DNA of 64,000 bases from Oscillospiraceae bacterium. Lineage in GTDB: Bacteria > Bacillota > Clostridia > Oscillospirales > Acutalibacteraceae. The notes beneath the pieces are model-generated. The model saw only the letters and a program-made list of their open reading frames with translations. It did not search any database and was not told the origin of the DNA. The DNA lies in assembly GCA_015066385.1 (NCBI GenBank), contig SVOJ01000007.1, positions 17,448 through 81,447 on the forward strand, in the 5' to 3' direction. Below, one piece after another: positions 46,352-57,290 of the stretch; the stretch's first letter is position 1, and each line of letters begins with the position of its first letter. The position numbers were made by a program, and so were the translations under genes.

Positions 46352-48424
46352 ATGGACAAGCAGGAATTGAAGTATTTGCAGAATGTACAATCGTTTATTG
46401 ATGCACAGATGCAGTATCTGTCGCAACTGAAAACGGAACAACTTGCAGAAGCCCGTGCCGAGGGAGCCCAATTTTCGTTGGACAATCCTTACGGTGCGGT
46501 ATACGGTCATGCGTTCGACCTGCAGGAATCCATCGGCAAAAAAATGGACACTGTCAACCAGTGCATCTCCACCCGTTATATTCTTGAAAAAATGCGGTCT
46601 GCACCCTATTTCGGCAGGGTCGATTTTCAGGAGGACGGCTACGAAACGGAAGAAATCTATGTCGGTCTTCGTACGTTGATGGACTCCGATACGCTGTTTG
46701 TGCATGTTTATGACTGGCGTACCCCTGTCTGCTCGTTGTTTTACACGGGTGAAACGGGTCGGGCTTCTTATACCGCCCCGATGGGGCTTATTGAAGGCGA
46801 AATTCAGAAAATCCGTCAGTATCAGTTCAAGGACGGCGAACTTGCCGCTTGCTGGGATGCGGATCTTCGCATTGATGACACGGTGCTTCGCAATGTGCTT
46901 TCGGGGGCATCGAGCGACCGTCTGAAAGTCATTGTCTGTTCCATTCAGCGTGAGCAGAACCGCTGTATCCGTTTTGATACCAAAAAGAGCCTTGCCGTGT
47001 TCGGTCCCGCGGGGTGCGGAAAAACCTCCATCGGCATGCACCGCCTTGCATGGCTGTTGTATGAACTGCGGACAAGCCTGATTTCCAAAGATATTCTTCT
47101 GTTTACGAATAATGTGGCATTTCTGCACTATGTTTCGGGCGTGCTTCCCGACCTCGGCGAAGAAGAAGTGCGCTCTTGCCTGTTCTCGTCTTTGCTCGAA
47201 CAATATCTGCCCGAATACACCGTGACAGATTATTATGAATTGGCAGAAGCGGTGCTTGAAGGGAATGAATACCGAACAAAAACGGTCAATGCCGTTTATG
47301 ACCCCGATTTTCTTTCCTATGTGGATCGCTGTCTGGATCTGATGCACTGCCGCTTTTTTGATATCCGCGTGTTCGGCGAAGTTGCACTGTCTGCCGAAAC
47401 CATGAAAAAGAAATACGAGGCGTTTTCCGTCAATTTGTCCGTGCATGCAAGATTGCAACTGCTGCTGGAATGGGCAAGGGATGAAATTGATGATTATTTT
47501 CTTATCAATCGTCTTGACCTGACGAGCAAACTGCTTGAAAAGCACGAAAGCCATGAGCCTTTGCAGAAACTCATGGAAAATTTAAAAAACAGTGTGCTCG
47601 GCAACCTCGAAATGATGATCAACAGTGCCGTGGCACAGGATACCGTACCGCTTTACTACCGCTTTTTCCGTGCATGGTGCAAGGACAAAAAACTTGCGGA
47701 TGATCTTGCACACCGCATGGGCAACCGCCTTCTGAATTTTGAAGATGCCGTTATGGCATTGTATATTGCCGCGAAACTGGGTAACTGTGAACAGGAGGAT
47801 CCCCCTGCACACATTCTGCTTGATGAAGCACAGGATTATTCTGTTTTGCAGCACAAAATTCTGCGTTTGCTGTATCCCAAAGCCGTGTTCACTTTGCTTG
47901 CCGACACCAATCAGGCACTTGTGCCGCAACTCAACACCACAAGCGAAGCACAGCTTTGTGAAATTTACGGTGCATCTGTGATGAAACTCGGCAAAAGCTA
48001 CCGTGCCACCAAACAACTCAGTGAATTTTCAAAACAATTCCTGGACGGTGCGGATTATGATGTCTTTGACCGCGAAGGACAAGCACCTTTCGTGTATCAC
48101 ACCGACAATCTTGCCGGAACTGCCGCCGAAATTGCAAAAAATGTTCCCGCAGACTACAATTCCGTCTGCATTCTGACCGATACCGCGGCAACAGCGGCAA
48201 GATTCTATAAAGAAATAAAAAAATATCTGCCCGATTGCGAGCTGGTCAACACCGCTTATGCTCGCATGAGCAGTAAAGTCATTATTATGCCCGTCACATT
48301 GAGTAAAGGGCTTGAATTCGATGCAGTTATTATCCCGCATGCCGAAGATCTTGAGAAAAACAGACGTGTGGCTTATATGATGACCACCCGTGCGTTGCAC
48401 GAACTGCATCTGCTTTACGAATAA
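46352..48424 (+). CDS. helD: HelD-type UvrD-like helicase (RNA polymerase recycling factor)
   Basis: 690 aa. The N-terminal coiled region and PYFGRVDF ... YVGLRTL segment are typical of HelD. Walker A is GPAGCGKT, and the C-terminus is UvrD-like (KGLEFDAVII). Confidence 0.8.
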   Translation: MDKQELKYLQNVQSFIDAQMQYLSQLKTEQLAEARAEGAQFSLDNPYGAVYGHAFDLQESIGKKMDTVNQCISTRYILEKMRSAPYFGRVDFQEDGYETEEIYVGLRTLMDSDTLFVHVYDWRTPVCSLFYTGETGRASYTAPMGLIEGEIQKIRQYQFKDGELAACWDADLRIDDTVLRNVLSGASSDRLKVIVCSIQREQNRCIRFDTKKSLAVFGPAGCGKTSIGMHRLAWLLYELRTSLISKDILLFTNNVAFLHYVSGVLPDLGEEEVRSCLFSSLLEQYLPEYTVTDYYELAEAVLEGNEYRTKTVNAVYDPDFLSYVDRCLDLMHCRFFDIRVFGEVALSAETMKKKYEAFSVNLSVHARLQLLLEWARDEIDDYFLINRLDLTSKLLEKHESHEPLQKLMENLKNSVLGNLEMMINSAVAQDTVPLYYRFFRAWCKDKKLADDLAHRMGNRLLNFEDAVMALYIAAKLGNCEQEDPPAHILLDEAQDYSVLQHKILRLLYPKAVFTLLADTNQALVPQLNTTSEAQLCEIYGASVMKLGKSYRATKQLSEFSKQFLDGADYDVFDREGQAPFVYHTDNLAGTAAEIAKNVPADYNSVCILTDTAATAARFYKEIKKYLPDCELVNTAYARMSSKVIIMPVTLSKGLEFDAVIIPHAEDLEKNRRVAYMMTTRALHELHLLYE

Positions 48425-48486
48425 ACAATTCAAAACTGCATAAACTGTATTATCTTCCGAAAAGCGGTTTGCTTTGCGATTTTGTA

Positions 48487-48515
48487 TTGACAAGATTGAA
48501 TTTATATGCTACAAT
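48487..48515 (+). promoter_or_regulatory. Consensus sigma-A promoter of the type III TA locus
   Basis: TTGACA (48487-48492), a 17-nt spacer, then TACAAT (48510-48515). Confidence 0.7.
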
Positions 48516-48518
48516 TCA

Positions 48519-48617
48519 ATTGAAGATCAGGTGCGAGGATAACACCTTTATAAAGAAATTCCGATTCAAGATCAGGTGTGAGGGTAACACCTTCATAAAA
48601 AAATCCCAACGGAAGAT
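48519..48617 (+). ncRNA. Type III antitoxin RNA: 2.2 tandem 45-nt repeats
   Basis: Units 48519-48563 and 48564-48608 are 38/45 identical by my count. Each contains an AGGTG...CACCT hairpin and an A-rich tract. A partial third unit GGAAGAT follows. Confidence 0.75.
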
Positions 48618-48653
48618 AGCCCTTGTACTTCGGTGCAAGGGCTTTATCTTTTT
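48618..48653 (+). terminator. Intra-operon terminator between antitoxin repeats and toxin gene
   Basis: An 11-bp stem, AGCCCTTGTAC / GTGCAAGGGCT, with a TTCG loop and a following U-rich tract. Confidence 0.75.
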
Positions 48654-48665
48654 GTATGAGGTATT

Positions 48666-49133
48666 ATGAAAACAAAAAAGATTTACGAATTACATTATTT
48701 GTCGGCAGAATTTTATAATAAGTACAACACATCAGAATATCCCGAAATTGAACATAAGATACAGCGACCTTATATTGTACTTTTGATTCAGGTAGATAAC
48801 AACACTTTTGCACTGCCTTTAAGAACAAATATCAAGCATGGTAATTGTTATAAATTTCAGTATTCATCAAGACCGACAGATAGTATTACCGGCATTGATT
48901 TTTCAAAAGCGGTCATAGTGAACGAAGCAAGTTATATAGGTGAAGCTGCTGAAATTGATAATAAGGAATATGTGGAGTTGAATGACAGAATTGCTTTTAT
49001 CGTCAGCAAATTCCGCACATATGTAAAAGGTTATTACACCTATGCGGCAGGAAAAGCGAATGAATATCAGGCAAAGAGATATAAATATACAACGCTAAAA
49101 TATTTCCATGAAGAGCTTGGTATATCGGAGTAA
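48666..49133 (+). CDS. Type III TA toxin, ToxN/AbiQ/CptN-like endoribonuclease (putative)
   Basis: 155-aa AT-rich ORF 12 nt after the terminator. The segment RPYIVLLIQVDNNTFALPLRTNIKH parallels the AbiQ/ToxN segment ...IGIVLEI.GHKYLAPLTSPK. The locus architecture is diagnostic. Confidence 0.7.
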   Translation: MKTKKIYELHYLSAEFYNKYNTSEYPEIEHKIQRPYIVLLIQVDNNTFALPLRTNIKHGNCYKFQYSSRPTDSITGIDFSKAVIVNEASYIGEAAEIDNKEYVELNDRIAFIVSKFRTYVKGYYTYAAGKANEYQAKRYKYTTLKYFHEELGISE

Positions 49134-49241
49134 ATCCGTGAGTACAAAAATTTTCGGCAATCAAATTATATCACAAAAAATCGTAAAAATTTAAATTATA
49201 ATCACAATTATTATAATAACGATAAAACAAGAGAAAACACA

Positions 49242-54761: not shown

Positions 54762-54983
54762 CAAACGTATCCCCCTCCCGATTATTTAATGGTATTCAAA
54801 AAGCATCAGATACTCACACTTAAAAAATAGTGTTTCTGAATAAAAATTGTTCGGAAAACTCAGAGGCAGATCGGTTGTGCTGTTATTAAGGGCAATATGA
54901 TTTTTTGCTATCAGTTAACAAGATATTTCATTTTATAGAAACATTTTAGTAATAGTCTTAAAAAAACAAACGAGGTGAAGAAT

Positions 54984-57290
54984 ATGGCAAAAGGAAAACG
55001 TGCAGAATCTCGTTGTAGATACTTGGTAAGAGAAATAGCTAATCAAAAAGGGTGGAATATAAAACATCCTCAACGGGGTGGCGATTTTTTAGAGGAACAA
55101 GAAATTGAAGATTATTTTCCTGACACCGGATTAGGGAAGACAAAACCCGATTTTTTGATCTGTAAACAGTACGCACCAATTATCGTTGTTGAAGCTAAAA
55201 ATGATCTCAAGAAAATTGAAACGGCTCTTTCTGAGGCTATTGACTACGCTAATACAATCAACAAGTACGGAAATTATTCCGTTAGCATTGCAATTGGAGT
55301 TGCCGGCGAAGAAGATAATGGTTATCTTTTCAAAACAGTCATACTTAATGATGGGGAATGGATACCACTTGCTTCTCATGGTTTCAACTTAACAAGTTTT
55401 CCGAGTGTTAGTGAAGTTGAAACAGCATTGTTAACCAAAAATGGTACAACAGAAGTAGCGATTCCAAAAGTTTCTGACTATATAACGACTGCAATAGAGT
55501 TATCAGCTGTTTTACGTTCAGCAAAGATTGAACCGTCCCTACGTCCGAAAGTATTAGGCGCTGTAATTACAGCACTTTATCAAGGCGAAATTGACTTGGA
55601 ACAAGGAAAAGAATTGTCCTCTGTGAATGGATTGGTTGAGGCTGCTATTGCTACAACAGATCATTTTGAAGAGTCCAAGAAAAATCAGTTAGTTGAAACA
55701 CTTCGCCTTTCTGAGACGGATTACGCAAGATTAGCCCCTAAAATAGGGAAAATTGTCCATACGTTAAAGGCACTTAACATTAAATCCATTTTGAGAACAG
55801 ATACAGACTTTTTGGGATTACTGTATGAAGCATTTATTCGTTATGGCTATGATAACAATTCTTTGGGAATTGTTTTCACCCCACGACATATCACTAAGTT
55901 TTGTGCTGAATTGATTGATGTTACAGCACAAGATACCGTTATTGATATTGCTTGTGGGTCGGGCGGATTCTTGGTTGCATCGTTTGATAGAATGCTGAAG
56001 ACATCAAAAGAACTTGGTGTTTCTTATTCAATAATTCGCGAATCTCTTTATGGATTTGATACGAACCCGACTGTATGGGCTCTTGCTGCTTTAAATATGT
56101 TTTTCAGAGGCGACGGAAAAAGCCACATCGAAAACGTGAGTTGTTTTGATTCTCACAGTAAAGAAAGTGTAAAAGGTCGTTTTACAAAAGCACTCATTAA
56201 CCCACCTTTCTCGCAGGAGGAGGAACCTGAACGCGATTTTATTGATGCCGCAATGGCAGCATTGCATAAAACAGGCTTACTTGCAGTGGTTGTGAAATCC
56301 GGTATTTTTGCGGATGAAGATAATGCGCCTTGGCGAAATAATTTTTTGGTTAGTAACGCAGTGATAGGTATGATCAGCCTTCCTGGTGACCTGTTCTATC
56401 CCACTGCTGTTGACACAACAATTATGATTGCGGCACCTCGCAGCCAGCGAACAACAGATGACGTTTTCATGGCAAAAATATGGAATGATGGATATCGTAA
56501 ATTAAAAGGGAAACGAGTAGAAGCATCCGGTTCCCAACTCGAAGAAATTCTTCAAGAGTTTATCAAATTCAGATCCGGTCAGCCGGTGTCCTCTGATCTT
56601 GCAACTGTAATTAAAGCGGAGAAAATCATGCGCAGAGGTGCGGAATTTTGCCCTGAGGCATATCTTCCTCAACCGGAATTTCCGCAAGAGGAACAAGAAC
56701 GATATCGAGACGAAATCACAAAATCCATTCTTACAACGGCTGTATGTGTAGAAGATATCGCCGACGAAGTTCTGCCGGACTTTCCCTCATGGAATAATCT
56801 TCCGCTAATGCCATACGGAGAAACGGACAGCATTGAACGATTTTTCACTGTTATGGGTGGAAAGTCGAGTGGTGAAAGCAATTATCACACCGGTTCATGT
56901 CCATATATTTCTTCTGGTGATCCTCAAAACAGTGTTGTTCGTTTGGTTGGGGATGTTGATAATGAGGTATTCTCTGACGGTGCAATTACAGTAACTTGTT
57001 TTGGTAGGGCCTGTGTTCAGCCGTGGAGATTTATGGCACGAGGAAATGGTGGTAGTGCCGTGCGTGTGTTAGTTCCTAAGTATGCTATGACCTATTCAGA
57101 ACTGGTTTGGTTTGCTGCGCAGATAAATATGCAAAGATGGCGATTCTTCTACGGAAGAATGGCGATTCTAAAAAGGCTCAAGCAAATTAAGTTAACTGCA
57201 CCGAAACAACAGTTACCGGATAGTGGTATAACAATAGCGAAAAAGGTTTCGGAATTGTCAGAAAAAGTAATTGATATTATGAAACAATAA
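54984..57290 (+). CDS. Fused restriction-modification enzyme, type IIG-like (PD-ExK nuclease + gamma-class N6A methyltransferase + TRD)
   Basis: The N-terminus KPDFLICKQYAPIIVVEAK is an HsdR-N-type PD-(D/E)xK motif. The middle carries FTPRHI, DIACGSGGFL (motif I) and NPPF (motif IV). The C-terminal ~200 aa resemble a half-TRD of specificity subunits. I chose the ATG at 54984, after GAGGTG. Confidence 0.7.
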   Translation: MAKGKRAESRCRYLVREIANQKGWNIKHPQRGGDFLEEQEIEDYFPDTGLGKTKPDFLICKQYAPIIVVEAKNDLKKIETALSEAIDYANTINKYGNYSVSIAIGVAGEEDNGYLFKTVILNDGEWIPLASHGFNLTSFPSVSEVETALLTKNGTTEVAIPKVSDYITTAIELSAVLRSAKIEPSLRPKVLGAVITALYQGEIDLEQGKELSSVNGLVEAAIATTDHFEESKKNQLVETLRLSETDYARLAPKIGKIVHTLKALNIKSILRTDTDFLGLLYEAFIRYGYDNNSLGIVFTPRHITKFCAELIDVTAQDTVIDIACGSGGFLVASFDRMLKTSKELGVSYSIIRESLYGFDTNPTVWALAALNMFFRGDGKSHIENVSCFDSHSKESVKGRFTKALINPPFSQEEEPERDFIDAAMAALHKTGLLAVVVKSGIFADEDNAPWRNNFLVSNAVIGMISLPGDLFYPTAVDTTIMIAAPRSQRTTDDVFMAKIWNDGYRKLKGKRVEASGSQLEEILQEFIKFRSGQPVSSDLATVIKAEKIMRRGAEFCPEAYLPQPEFPQEEQERYRDEITKSILTTAVCVEDIADEVLPDFPSWNNLPLMPYGETDSIERFFTVMGGKSSGESNYHTGSCPYISSGDPQNSVVRLVGDVDNEVFSDGAITVTCFGRACVQPWRFMARGNGGSAVRVLVPKYAMTYSELVWFAAQINMQRWRFFYGRMAILKRLKQIKLTAPKQQLPDSGITIAKKVSELSEKVIDIMKQ

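What the first reader, a model, noticed from the sequence alone, without database searches (positions are those of the whole stretch)
48487..49133. Type III (RNA-antitoxin) toxin-antitoxin / abortive-infection locus
What the sequence shows: a consensus promoter TTGACA-17-TACAAT (48487-48515); two tandem 45-nt units (48519-48563 and 48564-48608, 38/45 identical by my count) plus a ~10-nt partial third unit; an 11-bp stem/UUCG-loop terminator (48618-48653); and, 12 nt later, a 155-aa AT-rich ORF. Each repeat unit keeps an AGGTG...CACCT hairpin and an A-rich tract. The layout of promoter, short direct repeats, leaky terminator and toxin defines type III TA systems (ToxIN, CptIN and TenpIN families), which act in abortive phage infection. 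The ORF segment RPYIVLLIQVDNNTFALPLRTN parallels the ...YLAPLTSPK segment of ToxN/AbiQ. The 45-nt period, the roughly two copies and the Firmicutes host are most like the cptIN family. Protein-based annotation does not see the RNA partner, so the ORF would probably be labelled hypothetical. A 60-nt spot count inside the ORF gives about 35 percent GC against roughly 50 percent in the neighbours, which suggests horizontal acquisition.
Basis: partly seen in the sequence, partly recalled or inferred. Interest (0 to 1): 0.82.

Follow-up and report, generated by a model that had tools for sequence, protein, structure and literature searches.

The report
TenpIN RNA-antitoxin toxin–antitoxin module
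This is a real, intact toxin–antitoxin cassette in which a small repeated RNA neutralises a toxic RNA-cutting protein; it belongs to the already described TenpIN family (not CptIN, as first guessed), so it is a good catch but not a new kind of system.

Summary
The type III toxin–antitoxin reading is supported, but the family assignment is wrong. The ORF matches NCBIfam NF047358 (TenpIN toxin, equivalog) at 144 bits against a cut-off of 90. It is 36% identical to the toxin of a founding tenpIN locus on plasmid pACIX905. It shows no sequence match to any solved structure, CptN included.

Of the 120 related loci with a located ORF, 88 have upstream units and 78 have exactly two. In 39 of 40 distinct two-unit loci a terminator follows directly. 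Fifty distinct units support an H-type pseudoknot: all 10 base pairs show compensatory changes, and 90.9% of cells pair against 36–49% in slid controls. The AlphaFold model (pLDDT 90) is closest to ToxN (4ATO, TM 0.62), then MazF. The toxin is under purifying selection (dN/dS 0.04–0.09). The RNA array is more conserved than synonymous sites. The ~0.7-kb module sits in unrelated contexts in other genomes.

Verdict: a new member of a known, poorly characterised family. Toxicity, RNA processing and phage defence are inferred, not shown.

The parts
48437..48458 (+). Conserved upstream element (TGCATAAACTGTATTATCTTCC; consensus GCATAAAATATAATATCTTCC). It marks the upstream edge of the mobile module. 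Function unknown.
   Evidence: In the alignment of window, L001, L003, L004 and L005, similarity begins here and the flanks further upstream are unrelated.
48487..48515 (+). Sigma-70-type promoter: -35 TTGACA, 17-nt spacer, TG-extended -10 TACAAT. The predicted transcription start is at about 48522, the first base of unit 1.
   Evidence: 11 of 12 consensus matches, the best site in the region. The -35, the -10 and a 6-nt gap to the first GAAGAT are conserved in the five closest loci.
48522..48566 (+). TenpI antitoxin unit 1 (45 nt). Boundary motif GAAGAT 48522-48527. Stem 1 AGGUG 48529-48533 pairs with CACCU 48543-48547. Loop GGA 48537-48539 pairs with tail UCC 48560-48562 (pseudoknot stem 2). 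A-rich linker 48548-48559.
   Evidence: Tandem repeat; nhmmer unit hit at 41.9 bits; pseudoknot pair counts on 50 units.
48567..48611 (+). TenpI antitoxin unit 2 (45 nt). Boundary motif CAAGAT 48567-48572. Stem 1 AGGUGU 48574-48579 pairs with ACACCU 48587-48592. Loop GGG 48582-48584 pairs with tail CCC 48605-48607. A-rich linker 48593-48604.
   Evidence: The A-to-G change in the loop and the U-to-C change in the tail between units 1 and 2 are compensatory. The two units are distinct conserved lineages.
48612..48617 (+). Third boundary motif (GAAGAT), the 'partial third repeat'. It is inferred to supply the 3' processing site of unit 2.
   Evidence: In the distinct arrays listed, a motif matching or resembling NAWGAW starts each unit and recurs just before the terminator.
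48618..48653 (+). Intrinsic (Rho-independent) terminator between the antitoxin array and the toxin gene: 11-bp stem, UUCG loop, U-rich tail.
   Evidence: A terminator-like hairpin starts within about -8 to +2 nt of the last boundary motif in 39 of 40 distinct two-unit loci, with unrelated stem sequences.
48658..48661 (+). Putative Shine-Dalgarno sequence (GAGG) for the toxin gene.
   Evidence: Read directly from the sequence; GAGGT is conserved in the close loci.
48666..49133 (+). tenpN: 155-aa TenpN-family toxin, a predicted ToxN/MazF-fold endoribonuclease.
   Evidence: NCBIfam NF047358 at 3e-42, 144 bits against a cut-off of 90. AlphaFold pLDDT 90.3. Best PDB fold match is ToxN 4ATO, TM 0.62/0.58, probability 0.99, followed by MazF entries. 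dN/dS 0.04-0.09. Invariant R34, Y36, P51, R53, H58, G76, D78, K81.

Best explanation
The locus is a complete TenpIN-family type III toxin-antitoxin module, about 0.7 kb long, inserted between housekeeping genes of an Oscillospiraceae genome.

Proposed mechanism:
1. One strong promoter starts transcription at or next to the first GAAGAT.
2. Most transcripts end at the intrinsic terminator and yield only the two-unit TenpI precursor.
3. A minority read through and are translated into TenpN, a ToxN/MazF-fold endoribonuclease.
4. TenpN cuts the precursor at the NAWGAW boundary motifs into two ~45-nt RNAs.
5. Each RNA folds as an H-type pseudoknot: a 5-7-bp stem 1, a 3-bp stem 2 between the hairpin loop and the 3' tail, and an A-rich linker lying along stem 1.
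6. The RNAs stay bound to the toxin in a closed, inactive ribonucleoprotein.
7. When antitoxin supply fails, for example on transcription shut-off during phage infection or on loss of the module, free TenpN cleaves cellular or phage RNAs and stops growth.

What is shown here: the architecture and its conservation, family membership of the toxin, the ToxN-like predicted fold, covariation support for the pseudoknot, purifying selection on both parts, and mobility of the module. What is inferred by analogy with ToxIN, CptIN and Photorhabdus TenpIN: terminator read-through, self-processing, complex formation, toxicity and phage defence.
For: - **Architecture:**
- **TenpN family membership:** NCBIfam NF047358 equivalog, 144.2 bits against a cut-off of 90, covering profile positions 1-141 of 141. 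BLASTP gives 36% identity, E 8e-20, to the toxin of the pACIX905 tenpIN locus listed by Blower 2012. That locus has the same RNA design.
- **TenpN signature residues:** the conserved R-x-Y, P-x-R, H and G-x-D-x-x-K residues reported for TenpN (PMC12283969) are invariant here as R34/Y36, P51/R53, H58 and G76/D78/K81.
- **Fold:** pLDDT 90.3. The top PDB hit is ToxN_Bt 4ATO (TM 0.62/0.58, probability 0.99), followed by MazF toxins.
- **Conservation of the layout:** 88 of 120 related loci have TenpI units and 78 have exactly two. In 39 of 40 distinct loci a terminator follows directly.
- **Pseudoknot:** 10 of 10 pairs show double changes, 90.9% of cells pair against 36-49% for slid partners, and 0 of 500 shuffles reach the observed value. 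Stem 2 is 99.3% paired and includes GGA:UCC, GGG:CCC, GAG:CUC and UGG:CCA; GAGC:GCUC in L095 is visible in the alignment, and CGGU:ACCG in L074, which is not among the 50 units, in the repeat listing.
- **Selection:** toxin dN/dS 0.04-0.09. The RNA array is 91-95% identical where third codon positions are 53-71% identical.
- **Mobility:** GC 0.33. Homology ends at the module edges. Homologs 80-87% identical sit next to fucose isomerase, next to RuvB, or inside a MobC/relaxase element.
- **Published function:** TA activity and abortive infection were shown for Photorhabdus TenpIN (PMC3401426).
Against: - There is no experimental evidence for this locus or any close relative: no transcript data, no toxicity or rescue assay, no phage assay.
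- The Foldseek E-values are weak (0.04), and the profile-profile match to ToxN/AbiQ has only 6% probability.
- No TenpN structure or TenpIN complex has been solved, so stoichiometry and cleavage site are guesses.
- The pseudoknot model was derived from inspecting the same sequences used to test it, which inflates the contrast with the slid controls. Stem 2 has only 3 bp.
- CptIN loci from Firmicutes gave no phage protection in E. coli (PMC3401426), so an abortive-infection role cannot be assumed for a gut Firmicute system.
- PADLOC 2.0 and Pfam do not recognise the protein.
Confidence: 0.88

Rival explanations
1. It is a CptIN-family type III system, forming a CptIN-like complex with CptI-type RNA.
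For: The 45-nt period, about 2.1 copies, the Firmicutes host and the chromosomal location match the cptIN ranges (40-48 nt, 1.9-3.4 copies; PMC3401426, Table 2). The A-rich linker resembles the A-minor twist loop of CptI (PMC4627078).
Against: Families are defined by toxin sequence. The toxin scores as a TenpIN equivalog and is homologous to a listed tenpIN toxin. Neither the single sequence nor the 27-sequence profile finds any PDB chain at E up to 10, CptN 4RMO included. The best fold match is ToxN, not CptN. The repeat metrics also lie within the tenpIN range (39-57 nt, 1.9-3.0 copies).
Confidence: 0.03
2. It is a genuine TenpIN module, but its role in this host is selfish persistence or stabilisation of a genomic region (post-segregational killing), or stress-induced growth arrest, and not abortive phage infection.
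For: The module is a minimal self-contained cassette scattered among housekeeping genes and on a mobilisable element. There is no dense defence island around it; the only defence-like neighbour is an N6-methyltransferase 6 kb away. CptIN stabilised plasmids but did not abort phage in E. coli (PMC4627078). L002 has lost the toxin but kept the antitoxin array, as expected for addiction modules.
Against: The only tested TenpIN (Photorhabdus) reduced plating efficiency of three of the six coliphages tested, in two cases to below 1e-7 (PMC3401426, Table 3). Homologs occur on phage and prophage contigs, which fits a role in phage-phage or phage-host conflict. The two roles are not mutually exclusive.
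Confidence: 0.3
3. The repeats are only a cis-acting leader or attenuator, or DNA operator sites, that regulate the downstream ORF, and not a trans-acting RNA antitoxin.
For: The array lies between a promoter and a terminator directly upstream of the ORF, as in many leader-based attenuators. Rfam has no family for it.
Against: Covariation maintains a pseudoknot within each unit, not an anti-terminator alternative with the terminator. The units are duplicated in register with n+1 boundary motifs. The pairing between hairpin loop and 3' tail cannot be explained by a DNA palindrome. The same design precedes a toxin in a family whose repeats were shown to neutralise the toxin in trans (PMC3401426).
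Confidence: 0.04

Closest known systems
TenpIN type III toxin-antitoxin family (prototype: Photorhabdus luminescens TT01; Blower et al. 2012, PMC3401426; catalogue of 722 TenpN, Nadig et al. 2025, PMC12283969)
   Same: - The toxin passes the NCBIfam TenpIN equivalog model and is 36% identical to the toxin of the listed pACIX905 locus.
- It has the same layout: promoter, about 2 repeats, terminator, toxin.
- Repeat length (45 nt) and copy number (2.1) lie within the family ranges.
- The repeats are non-identical, carry an A-rich tract and have a two-stem pseudoknot, as described in 2025.
- The predicted core is ToxN-like with a long helix.
   Different: - The host lineage is an uncultured gut Oscillospiraceae.
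- The two units are conserved as separate lineages across loci, distinguished by a compensated stem-2 pair (A:U in unit 1, G:C in unit 2).
- This clade is only about 30-39% identical to plasmid-borne TenpN.
- Nothing about this clade has been tested experimentally.
ToxIN / AbiQ (Pectobacterium atrosepticum pECA1039, B. thuringiensis pAW63, Lactococcus AbiQ; PDB 2XDD, 4ATO, 4GLK)
   Same: The genetic architecture and presumed mechanism are the same. The best structural match of the model is ToxN_Bt 4ATO (TM 0.62). The beta-hairpin plus P-L-(R/T)-(T/S) segment aligns with ToxN ...YLAPLTS....
   Different: There is no Pfam ToxN_toxin match at E up to 1, and the profile-profile probability is only 6%. 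ToxI units are mostly shorter (mean 38 nt) and often more numerous, up to 5.6 copies. ToxIN forms 3:3 triangular complexes; the TenpIN stoichiometry is unknown.
CptIN (Eubacterium rectale; PDB 4RMO)
   Same: It has 45-nt units, about 2 copies, a Firmicutes chromosomal location, an H-type pseudoknot and a long A-rich loop (the A-minor twist in CptI). A two-unit array would match a 2:2 heterotetramer.
   Different: No toxin sequence similarity is detectable. CptN lacks the kinked helix seen in ToxN (PMC4627078) and predicted for TenpN (PMC12283969). CptI repeats are near-identical, whereas these two units differ at 7-9 of 45 positions.
MazF/Kid type II toxins
   Same: The endoribonuclease core fold is shared; ranks 2-50 of the fold search are MazF entries apart from one low-probability hit (9nk4), with TM 0.25-0.38.
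   Different: MazF has a protein antitoxin and no upstream RNA repeats. The toxin here is larger and has an added C-terminal helical bundle.

Membership tests
Type III toxin-antitoxin systems (general) | Tandem direct repeats lie immediately upstream of the toxin gene on the same strand | tested here: met
   45-nt period, 2.1 copies, 48519-48617, on the same strand as the ORF. It is the only strong tandem repeat in 64 kb. Of 120 homolog loci, 88 have unit hits and 78 have exactly two.
Type III toxin-antitoxin systems (general) | A single promoter lies upstream of the repeats and a Rho-independent terminator lies between repeats and toxin | tested here: met
   Promoter with 11 of 12 matches and an 11-bp terminator. 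The terminator is present in 39 of 40 distinct loci. Actual transcription and read-through cannot be tested with these tools.
Type III toxin-antitoxin systems (general) | Each repeat RNA folds into a pseudoknot | tested here: met
   Ten of 10 pairs show compensatory changes, 90.9% of cells pair against 36-49% in slid controls, and 0 of 500 shuffles reach the observed value. Caveat: the structure was derived from the same sequence set.
Type III toxin-antitoxin systems (general) | The toxin is a ToxN/Kid-fold endoribonuclease | tested here: inconclusive
   The high-confidence model (pLDDT 90.3) best matches ToxN 4ATO (TM 0.62, probability 0.99) and then MazF toxins, but all E-values are at least 0.04. 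Enzymatic activity cannot be tested here.
Type III toxin-antitoxin systems (general) | The toxin is toxic, is neutralised by its RNA in trans, and processes the repeat precursor | not testable with these tools
   This needs expression and rescue assays and RNA end mapping.
TenpIN | Toxin sequence homologous to TenpN (the families are defined by toxin sequence) | tested here: met
   NCBIfam NF047358 'type III toxin-antitoxin system TenpIN family toxin' (equivalog): E 3e-42, 144.2 bits against a cut-off of 90, profile positions 1-141 of 141. BLASTP to the pACIX905 TenpN gives 36% identity, E 8e-20.
TenpIN | Conserved TenpN residues: R36, Y38, P53, R55, H60, G75, D77, K80 in E. faecium numbering (PMC12283969) | tested here: met
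   R34, Y36, P51, R53, H58, G76, D78 and K81 are invariant in 27 homologs. The correspondence rests on identical spacing within each motif, not on a direct alignment to the E. faecium sequence.
TenpIN | Repeat units of 39-57 nt in 1.9-3.0 copies, often non-identical, with an A-rich tract in the second half | tested here: met
   45 nt in 2.1 copies, 38/45 identical, with AUAAAGAAAU and AUAAAAAAAU tracts. Ranges are from PMC3401426 Table 2; the non-identical repeats and A-tract are described in PMC12283969.
CptIN | Toxin sequence homologous to CptN (e.g. E. rectale CptN, PDB 4RMO) | tested here: not met
   No PDB chain is matched at E up to 10 by the single sequence or by the 27-sequence profile. 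CptN is not among the top 50 fold matches. The only NCBIfam type III hit is TenpIN.
CptIN | Repeat units of 40-48 nt in about 2 copies | tested here: met
   45 nt in 2.1 copies. This feature does not discriminate cptIN from tenpIN.
ToxIN/AbiQ | Toxin matches the ToxN/AbiQ sequence family (Pfam ToxN_toxin) | tested here: not met
   No Pfam family is matched at E up to 1. hhalign against a ToxN/AbiQ profile gives probability 6%, E 0.006, over 37 columns only.

The most novel reading that the evidence does not exclude
In this clade the two non-identical TenpI units are not redundant copies but two distinct RNAs. Each is conserved as its own lineage (u1-u1 93%, u2-u2 91%, u1-u2 82%) and has its own compensated stem-2 pair and its own 3' tail. 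The array would then encode exactly one asymmetric closed complex, with two TenpN, one TenpI-a and one TenpI-b. That would be a hetero-RNA quaternary arrangement not seen in ToxIN (3:3, identical RNAs) or CptIN (2:2, identical RNAs). It would also answer the open question of whether both non-identical tenpI repeats are functional.
Probability: 0.15. Interest if true: 0.5.

Novelty: new member of a known kind. Interest (0 to 1): 0.3.

Why it matters
[quoted passage not shown] It has no solved structure, no mapped cleavage site and no known stoichiometry. This locus and its roughly 90 relatives from gut and rumen metagenomes give a clean comparative data set with three uses:

- It supports a specific H-type pseudoknot for TenpI through many independent compensatory changes.
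- It points to a conserved NAWGAW boundary motif, present n+1 times, as the likely processing site.
- It shows both non-identical units under constraint, which suggests both are functional.

It also illustrates an annotation gap. The protein is deposited as 'hypothetical', Pfam and PADLOC 2.0 miss it, and there is no Rfam model for the RNA partner. Such defence or addiction modules are therefore invisible in most gut-microbiome annotations. None of this changes the understanding of type III systems; it extends a known family.

Tried and rejected
- **Pfam and PADLOC scans of the ORF:** no real hit. The PADLOC 'Specificity_I' hit at E 0.023 was rejected as noise.
- **Rfam:** nothing credible on the locus at E up to 10 or on the whole window at gathering thresholds. 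The snoRNA and L10-leader matches score far below gathering.
- **PDB sequence searches:** single sequence and profile both found nothing, so no TenpN structure is available for comparison.
- **Single-sequence MFE fold of the array:** it gave an alternative long hairpin in unit 2 (GUGUGAGGGU/ACCUUCAU). I rejected it because it needs mismatches in unit 1 and is not the structure supported by covariation.
- **RNAalifold:** it recovers only stem 1, because it cannot predict pseudoknots.
- **Genome-contig scan with the single protein:** it returned only two loci. The metagenome and viral scans with the alignment were needed.
- **blastn of the module against plasmids:** no match.
- **Search of the supplement of PMC12283969 for this accession:** no supplementary text is held, so I cannot say whether MBE6812397.1 is among the 722 catalogued TenpN.
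- **CptIN assignment:** rejected (see the membership test).
- **Defence-island context:** not supported. The neighbours are an MFS transporter, a UvrD-like helicase, a radical-SAM protein, MgsA, and (from the gene table of the matching contig L123) a hexapeptide-repeat transferase and cysteinyl-tRNA synthetase; one N6-methyltransferase lies 6 kb away.
Full report
**1.

- The promoter is TTGACA, 17 nt, TACAAT with an upstream TG. It matches 11 of 12 consensus positions and is the best site in the region.
- Tandem Repeats Finder reports a 45-nt period with 1.9-2.1 copies over 48519-48617. This is the only tandem repeat scoring at least 80 in the 64-kb window.
- An 11-bp, UUCG-looped hairpin with a U-rich tail (48618-48653) is called as a terminator.
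- A GAGG precedes the ATG at 48666, and the ORF of 155 aa ends at 49133.
- GC falls to 0.33 across 48400-49200, against 0.47-0.52 in the flanking genes.

**2. The protein is a TenpN, not a CptN**

- Pfam and PADLOC 2.0 do not recognise the ORF.
- NCBIfam model NF047358, 'type III toxin-antitoxin system TenpIN family toxin' (equivalog), matches end to end at E 3e-42 and 144 bits against a cut-off of 90.
- tblastn against plasmids finds 86 records, all annotated 'hypothetical protein' or unannotated among those listed. One is pACIX905 of Granulicella tundricola MP5ACTX9, which Blower et al. list as a tenpIN locus (PMC3401426, Table 1). BLASTP to that toxin gives 36% identity, E 8e-20.
- The pACIX905 upstream region has the same RNA design: boundary GAUG, stem GUGG/CCAC, loop GGGUAA, an A-rich tract, a CCC tail and a terminator.
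- An alignment of 27 homologs has invariant R34, Y36, P51, R53, H58, G76, D78 and K81. These have the same motif spacing as the conserved TenpN residues reported by Nadig et al. 2025 (PMC12283969).
- No PDB chain is matched by sequence or by profile, so no TenpN structure exists and CptN (4RMO) is not detectably related.

**3. Predicted fold**

- AlphaFold2 with the 27-sequence alignment gives pLDDT 90.3 and pTM 0.86.
- Foldseek against the PDB ranks ToxN of B. thuringiensis (4ATO) first, with TM 0.62/0.58 and probability 0.99. MazF toxins follow at TM 0.25-0.38. All E-values are weak, at least 0.04.
- I recovered verified ToxN and AbiQ sequences from the PDB output and built a small profile. 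hhalign then pairs RPYIVLLIQVDNNTFALPLRT with ToxN KAFIGIVLEIQGHKYLAPLTS.
- The ToxN/MazF-type endoribonuclease fold is therefore likely. The catalytic-residue correspondence remains a hypothesis.

**4. The RNA**

- Scans of genome, metagenome and viral contigs gave 122 related loci.
- Including the window, an ORF could be located in 120 loci. A unit HMM finds TenpI-like units upstream of the toxin gene in 88 of them, and 78 have exactly two. Among loci with a toxin at least 39% identical the units usually lie at about -145 to -48 from the start codon, with some exceptions.
- In the distinct arrays I listed, each unit begins with a motif matching or resembling NAWGAW (GAAGAT or GATGAT), and a further copy sits just before the terminator stem.
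- In 39 of 40 distinct two-unit loci a terminator-like hairpin follows, starting within about -8 to +2 nt of the last boundary motif. The stem sequences are unrelated between clades.
- On an alignment of 50 distinct units (A2) I tested an H-type pseudoknot: stem 1 is columns 7-13 with 22-28, and stem 2 is loop columns 16, 18 and 19 with tail columns 47, 46 and 45.
- All 10 pairs show changes on both sides, and 90.9% of cells form standard pairs against 36-49% when partners are slid by 1-3 columns. No shuffle out of 500 reaches the observed pairing or covariation score.
- Stem 2 is 99.3% paired. Its variants among the 50 aligned units include GGA:UCC, GGG:CCC, GAG:CUC and UGG:CCA, with GAGC:GCUC in L095. 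L050 probably pairs GUG:CAC, but an insertion misaligns it and it accounts for the one unpaired cell. L074, which is not in that alignment, carries CGGU:ACCG.
- In the window, the unit 1 / unit 2 difference is itself compensatory: A48539:U48560 in unit 1 becomes G48584:C48605 in unit 2.
- RNAalifold, which cannot predict pseudoknots, recovers stem 1.
- The A-rich linker would lie along stem 1, as in CptI (PMC4627078) and as proposed for TenpI (PMC12283969).
- Caveat: I derived the structure from these same sequences, which flatters the slid-partner control.

**5. Constraint and mobility**

- Against four loci with toxins 79-88% identical, dN/dS is 0.04-0.09. Third codon positions are only 53-71% identical, yet the 96-nt RNA array is 91-95% identical. 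Both parts are therefore under selection.
- Homology between these loci starts about 50 nt upstream of the -35, at a conserved element (GCATAAAATATAATATCTTCC; window 48437-48458), and ends at the stop codon. Beyond those edges the flanks are unrelated.
- The exact window toxin occurs on 19 contigs. The two places shown share the context UvrD-like helicase / TenpIN / radical SAM, and the 17 places not shown were grouped with them as similar.
- Homologs 80-87% identical lie between fucose isomerase and a SASP gene, after RuvB, or inside a MobC/relaxase element.
- Together with the GC trough, this supports horizontal movement of a ~0.7-kb cassette.
- The host is an Oscillospiraceae/Ruminococcaceae MAG, and the protein is deposited as hypothetical.

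**6. Mechanism**

By analogy with ToxIN and CptIN (PMC4627078, PMC5086642) and with the tested Photorhabdus TenpIN (PMC3401426):
1. The promoter drives an RNA that mostly stops at the terminator.
2. Read-through produces TenpN.
3. TenpN cuts the precursor at the boundary motifs.
4. Each ~45-nt pseudoknot remains bound and closes an inactive ribonucleoprotein.
5. Loss of antitoxin supply frees the RNase.

The predicted transcription start (about 48522) coincides with the first GAAGAT, and the 6-nt gap between the -10 and that motif is conserved in the five closest loci. The architecture, the family, the fold similarity, the pseudoknot and the selection are shown here. Processing, complex formation, toxicity and phage defence are inferred.

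**7. Novelty and score**

TenpIN was defined in 2012 and expanded to 722 sequences in 2025, when non-identical repeats, A-tracts and putative pseudoknots were already described (PMC12283969). This locus is therefore a new member of a known kind.

The modest additions here are:
- quantitative covariation support across 50 units;
- the boundary motif present n+1 times;
- evidence that the two non-identical units of this clade are separately conserved lineages (u1-u1 93%, u2-u2 91%, u1-u2 82%).

The last point hints that both units are functional and possibly non-equivalent. Interest is 0.3.

Noticed in passing
L002:4820-5200: A Clostridia MAG locus keeps the promoter, both TenpI units and the terminator intact, but the toxin gene has an internal deletion and frameshift, leaving a 29-aa ORF. 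It looks like an orphan antitoxin array left after toxin loss.
   Followed up: partly
window 48437-48458: A 21-22-nt element (consensus GCATAAAATATAATATCTTCC) lies about 30-50 nt upstream of the -35. It is conserved in the window, L001, L003 and L004 and marks the upstream edge of the mobile module. Its function is unknown; it could be an operator, a second promoter or an insertion-site remnant.
   Followed up: no
window 54975-57290 (+): A 771-aa N6-adenine DNA methyltransferase, type I or type IIG-like by PADLOC (best hit MTase_I, E 1.3e-37), lies about 6 kb downstream of the TA module. I did not look for adjacent restriction or specificity subunits.
   Followed up: partly
window 46352-48424 (+): The 690-aa UvrD-like helicase directly upstream gives only weak, partial GajB-like PADLOC hits (E about 1e-8). 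It stays adjacent to the TA module in the two contigs shown that carry the exact toxin (the other 17 were grouped with them as similar), but not in other species.
   Followed up: partly
L127:1300-5000: A toxin 80% identical (P0014) lies just downstream of MobC/NikA-like and relaxase genes and next to several HTH regulators. This copy rides on a mobilisable element.
   Followed up: partly
L083, L090, L095 (IMG/VR viral contigs): Phage or prophage contigs carry TenpN homologs 28-42% identical. Some have recognisable TenpI units with fully different but still complementary stems (for example CUGUCG/CGACAG with GAGC/GCUC), in line with the 2025 report of viral tenpIN.
   Followed up: partly
L026, L028, L040, L051, L052, L053, L057, L060, L061: My automatic ORF caller returned toxin ORFs of 50 aa or fewer at these loci, although tblastn matches cover most of the protein. 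They may be further disrupted toxins or simply miscalled start codons.
   Followed up: no
L130:330-500 (plasmid pACIX905, NC_015060.1 about 92510-92680): The Acidobacteria tenpIN locus listed in 2012 has the same RNA design as the window: two ~54-nt units starting GAUG, loop GGGUAA, an A-rich tract, a CCC tail and a GGGCCC hairpin terminator. Its toxin is still annotated 'hypothetical protein'.
   Followed up: yes
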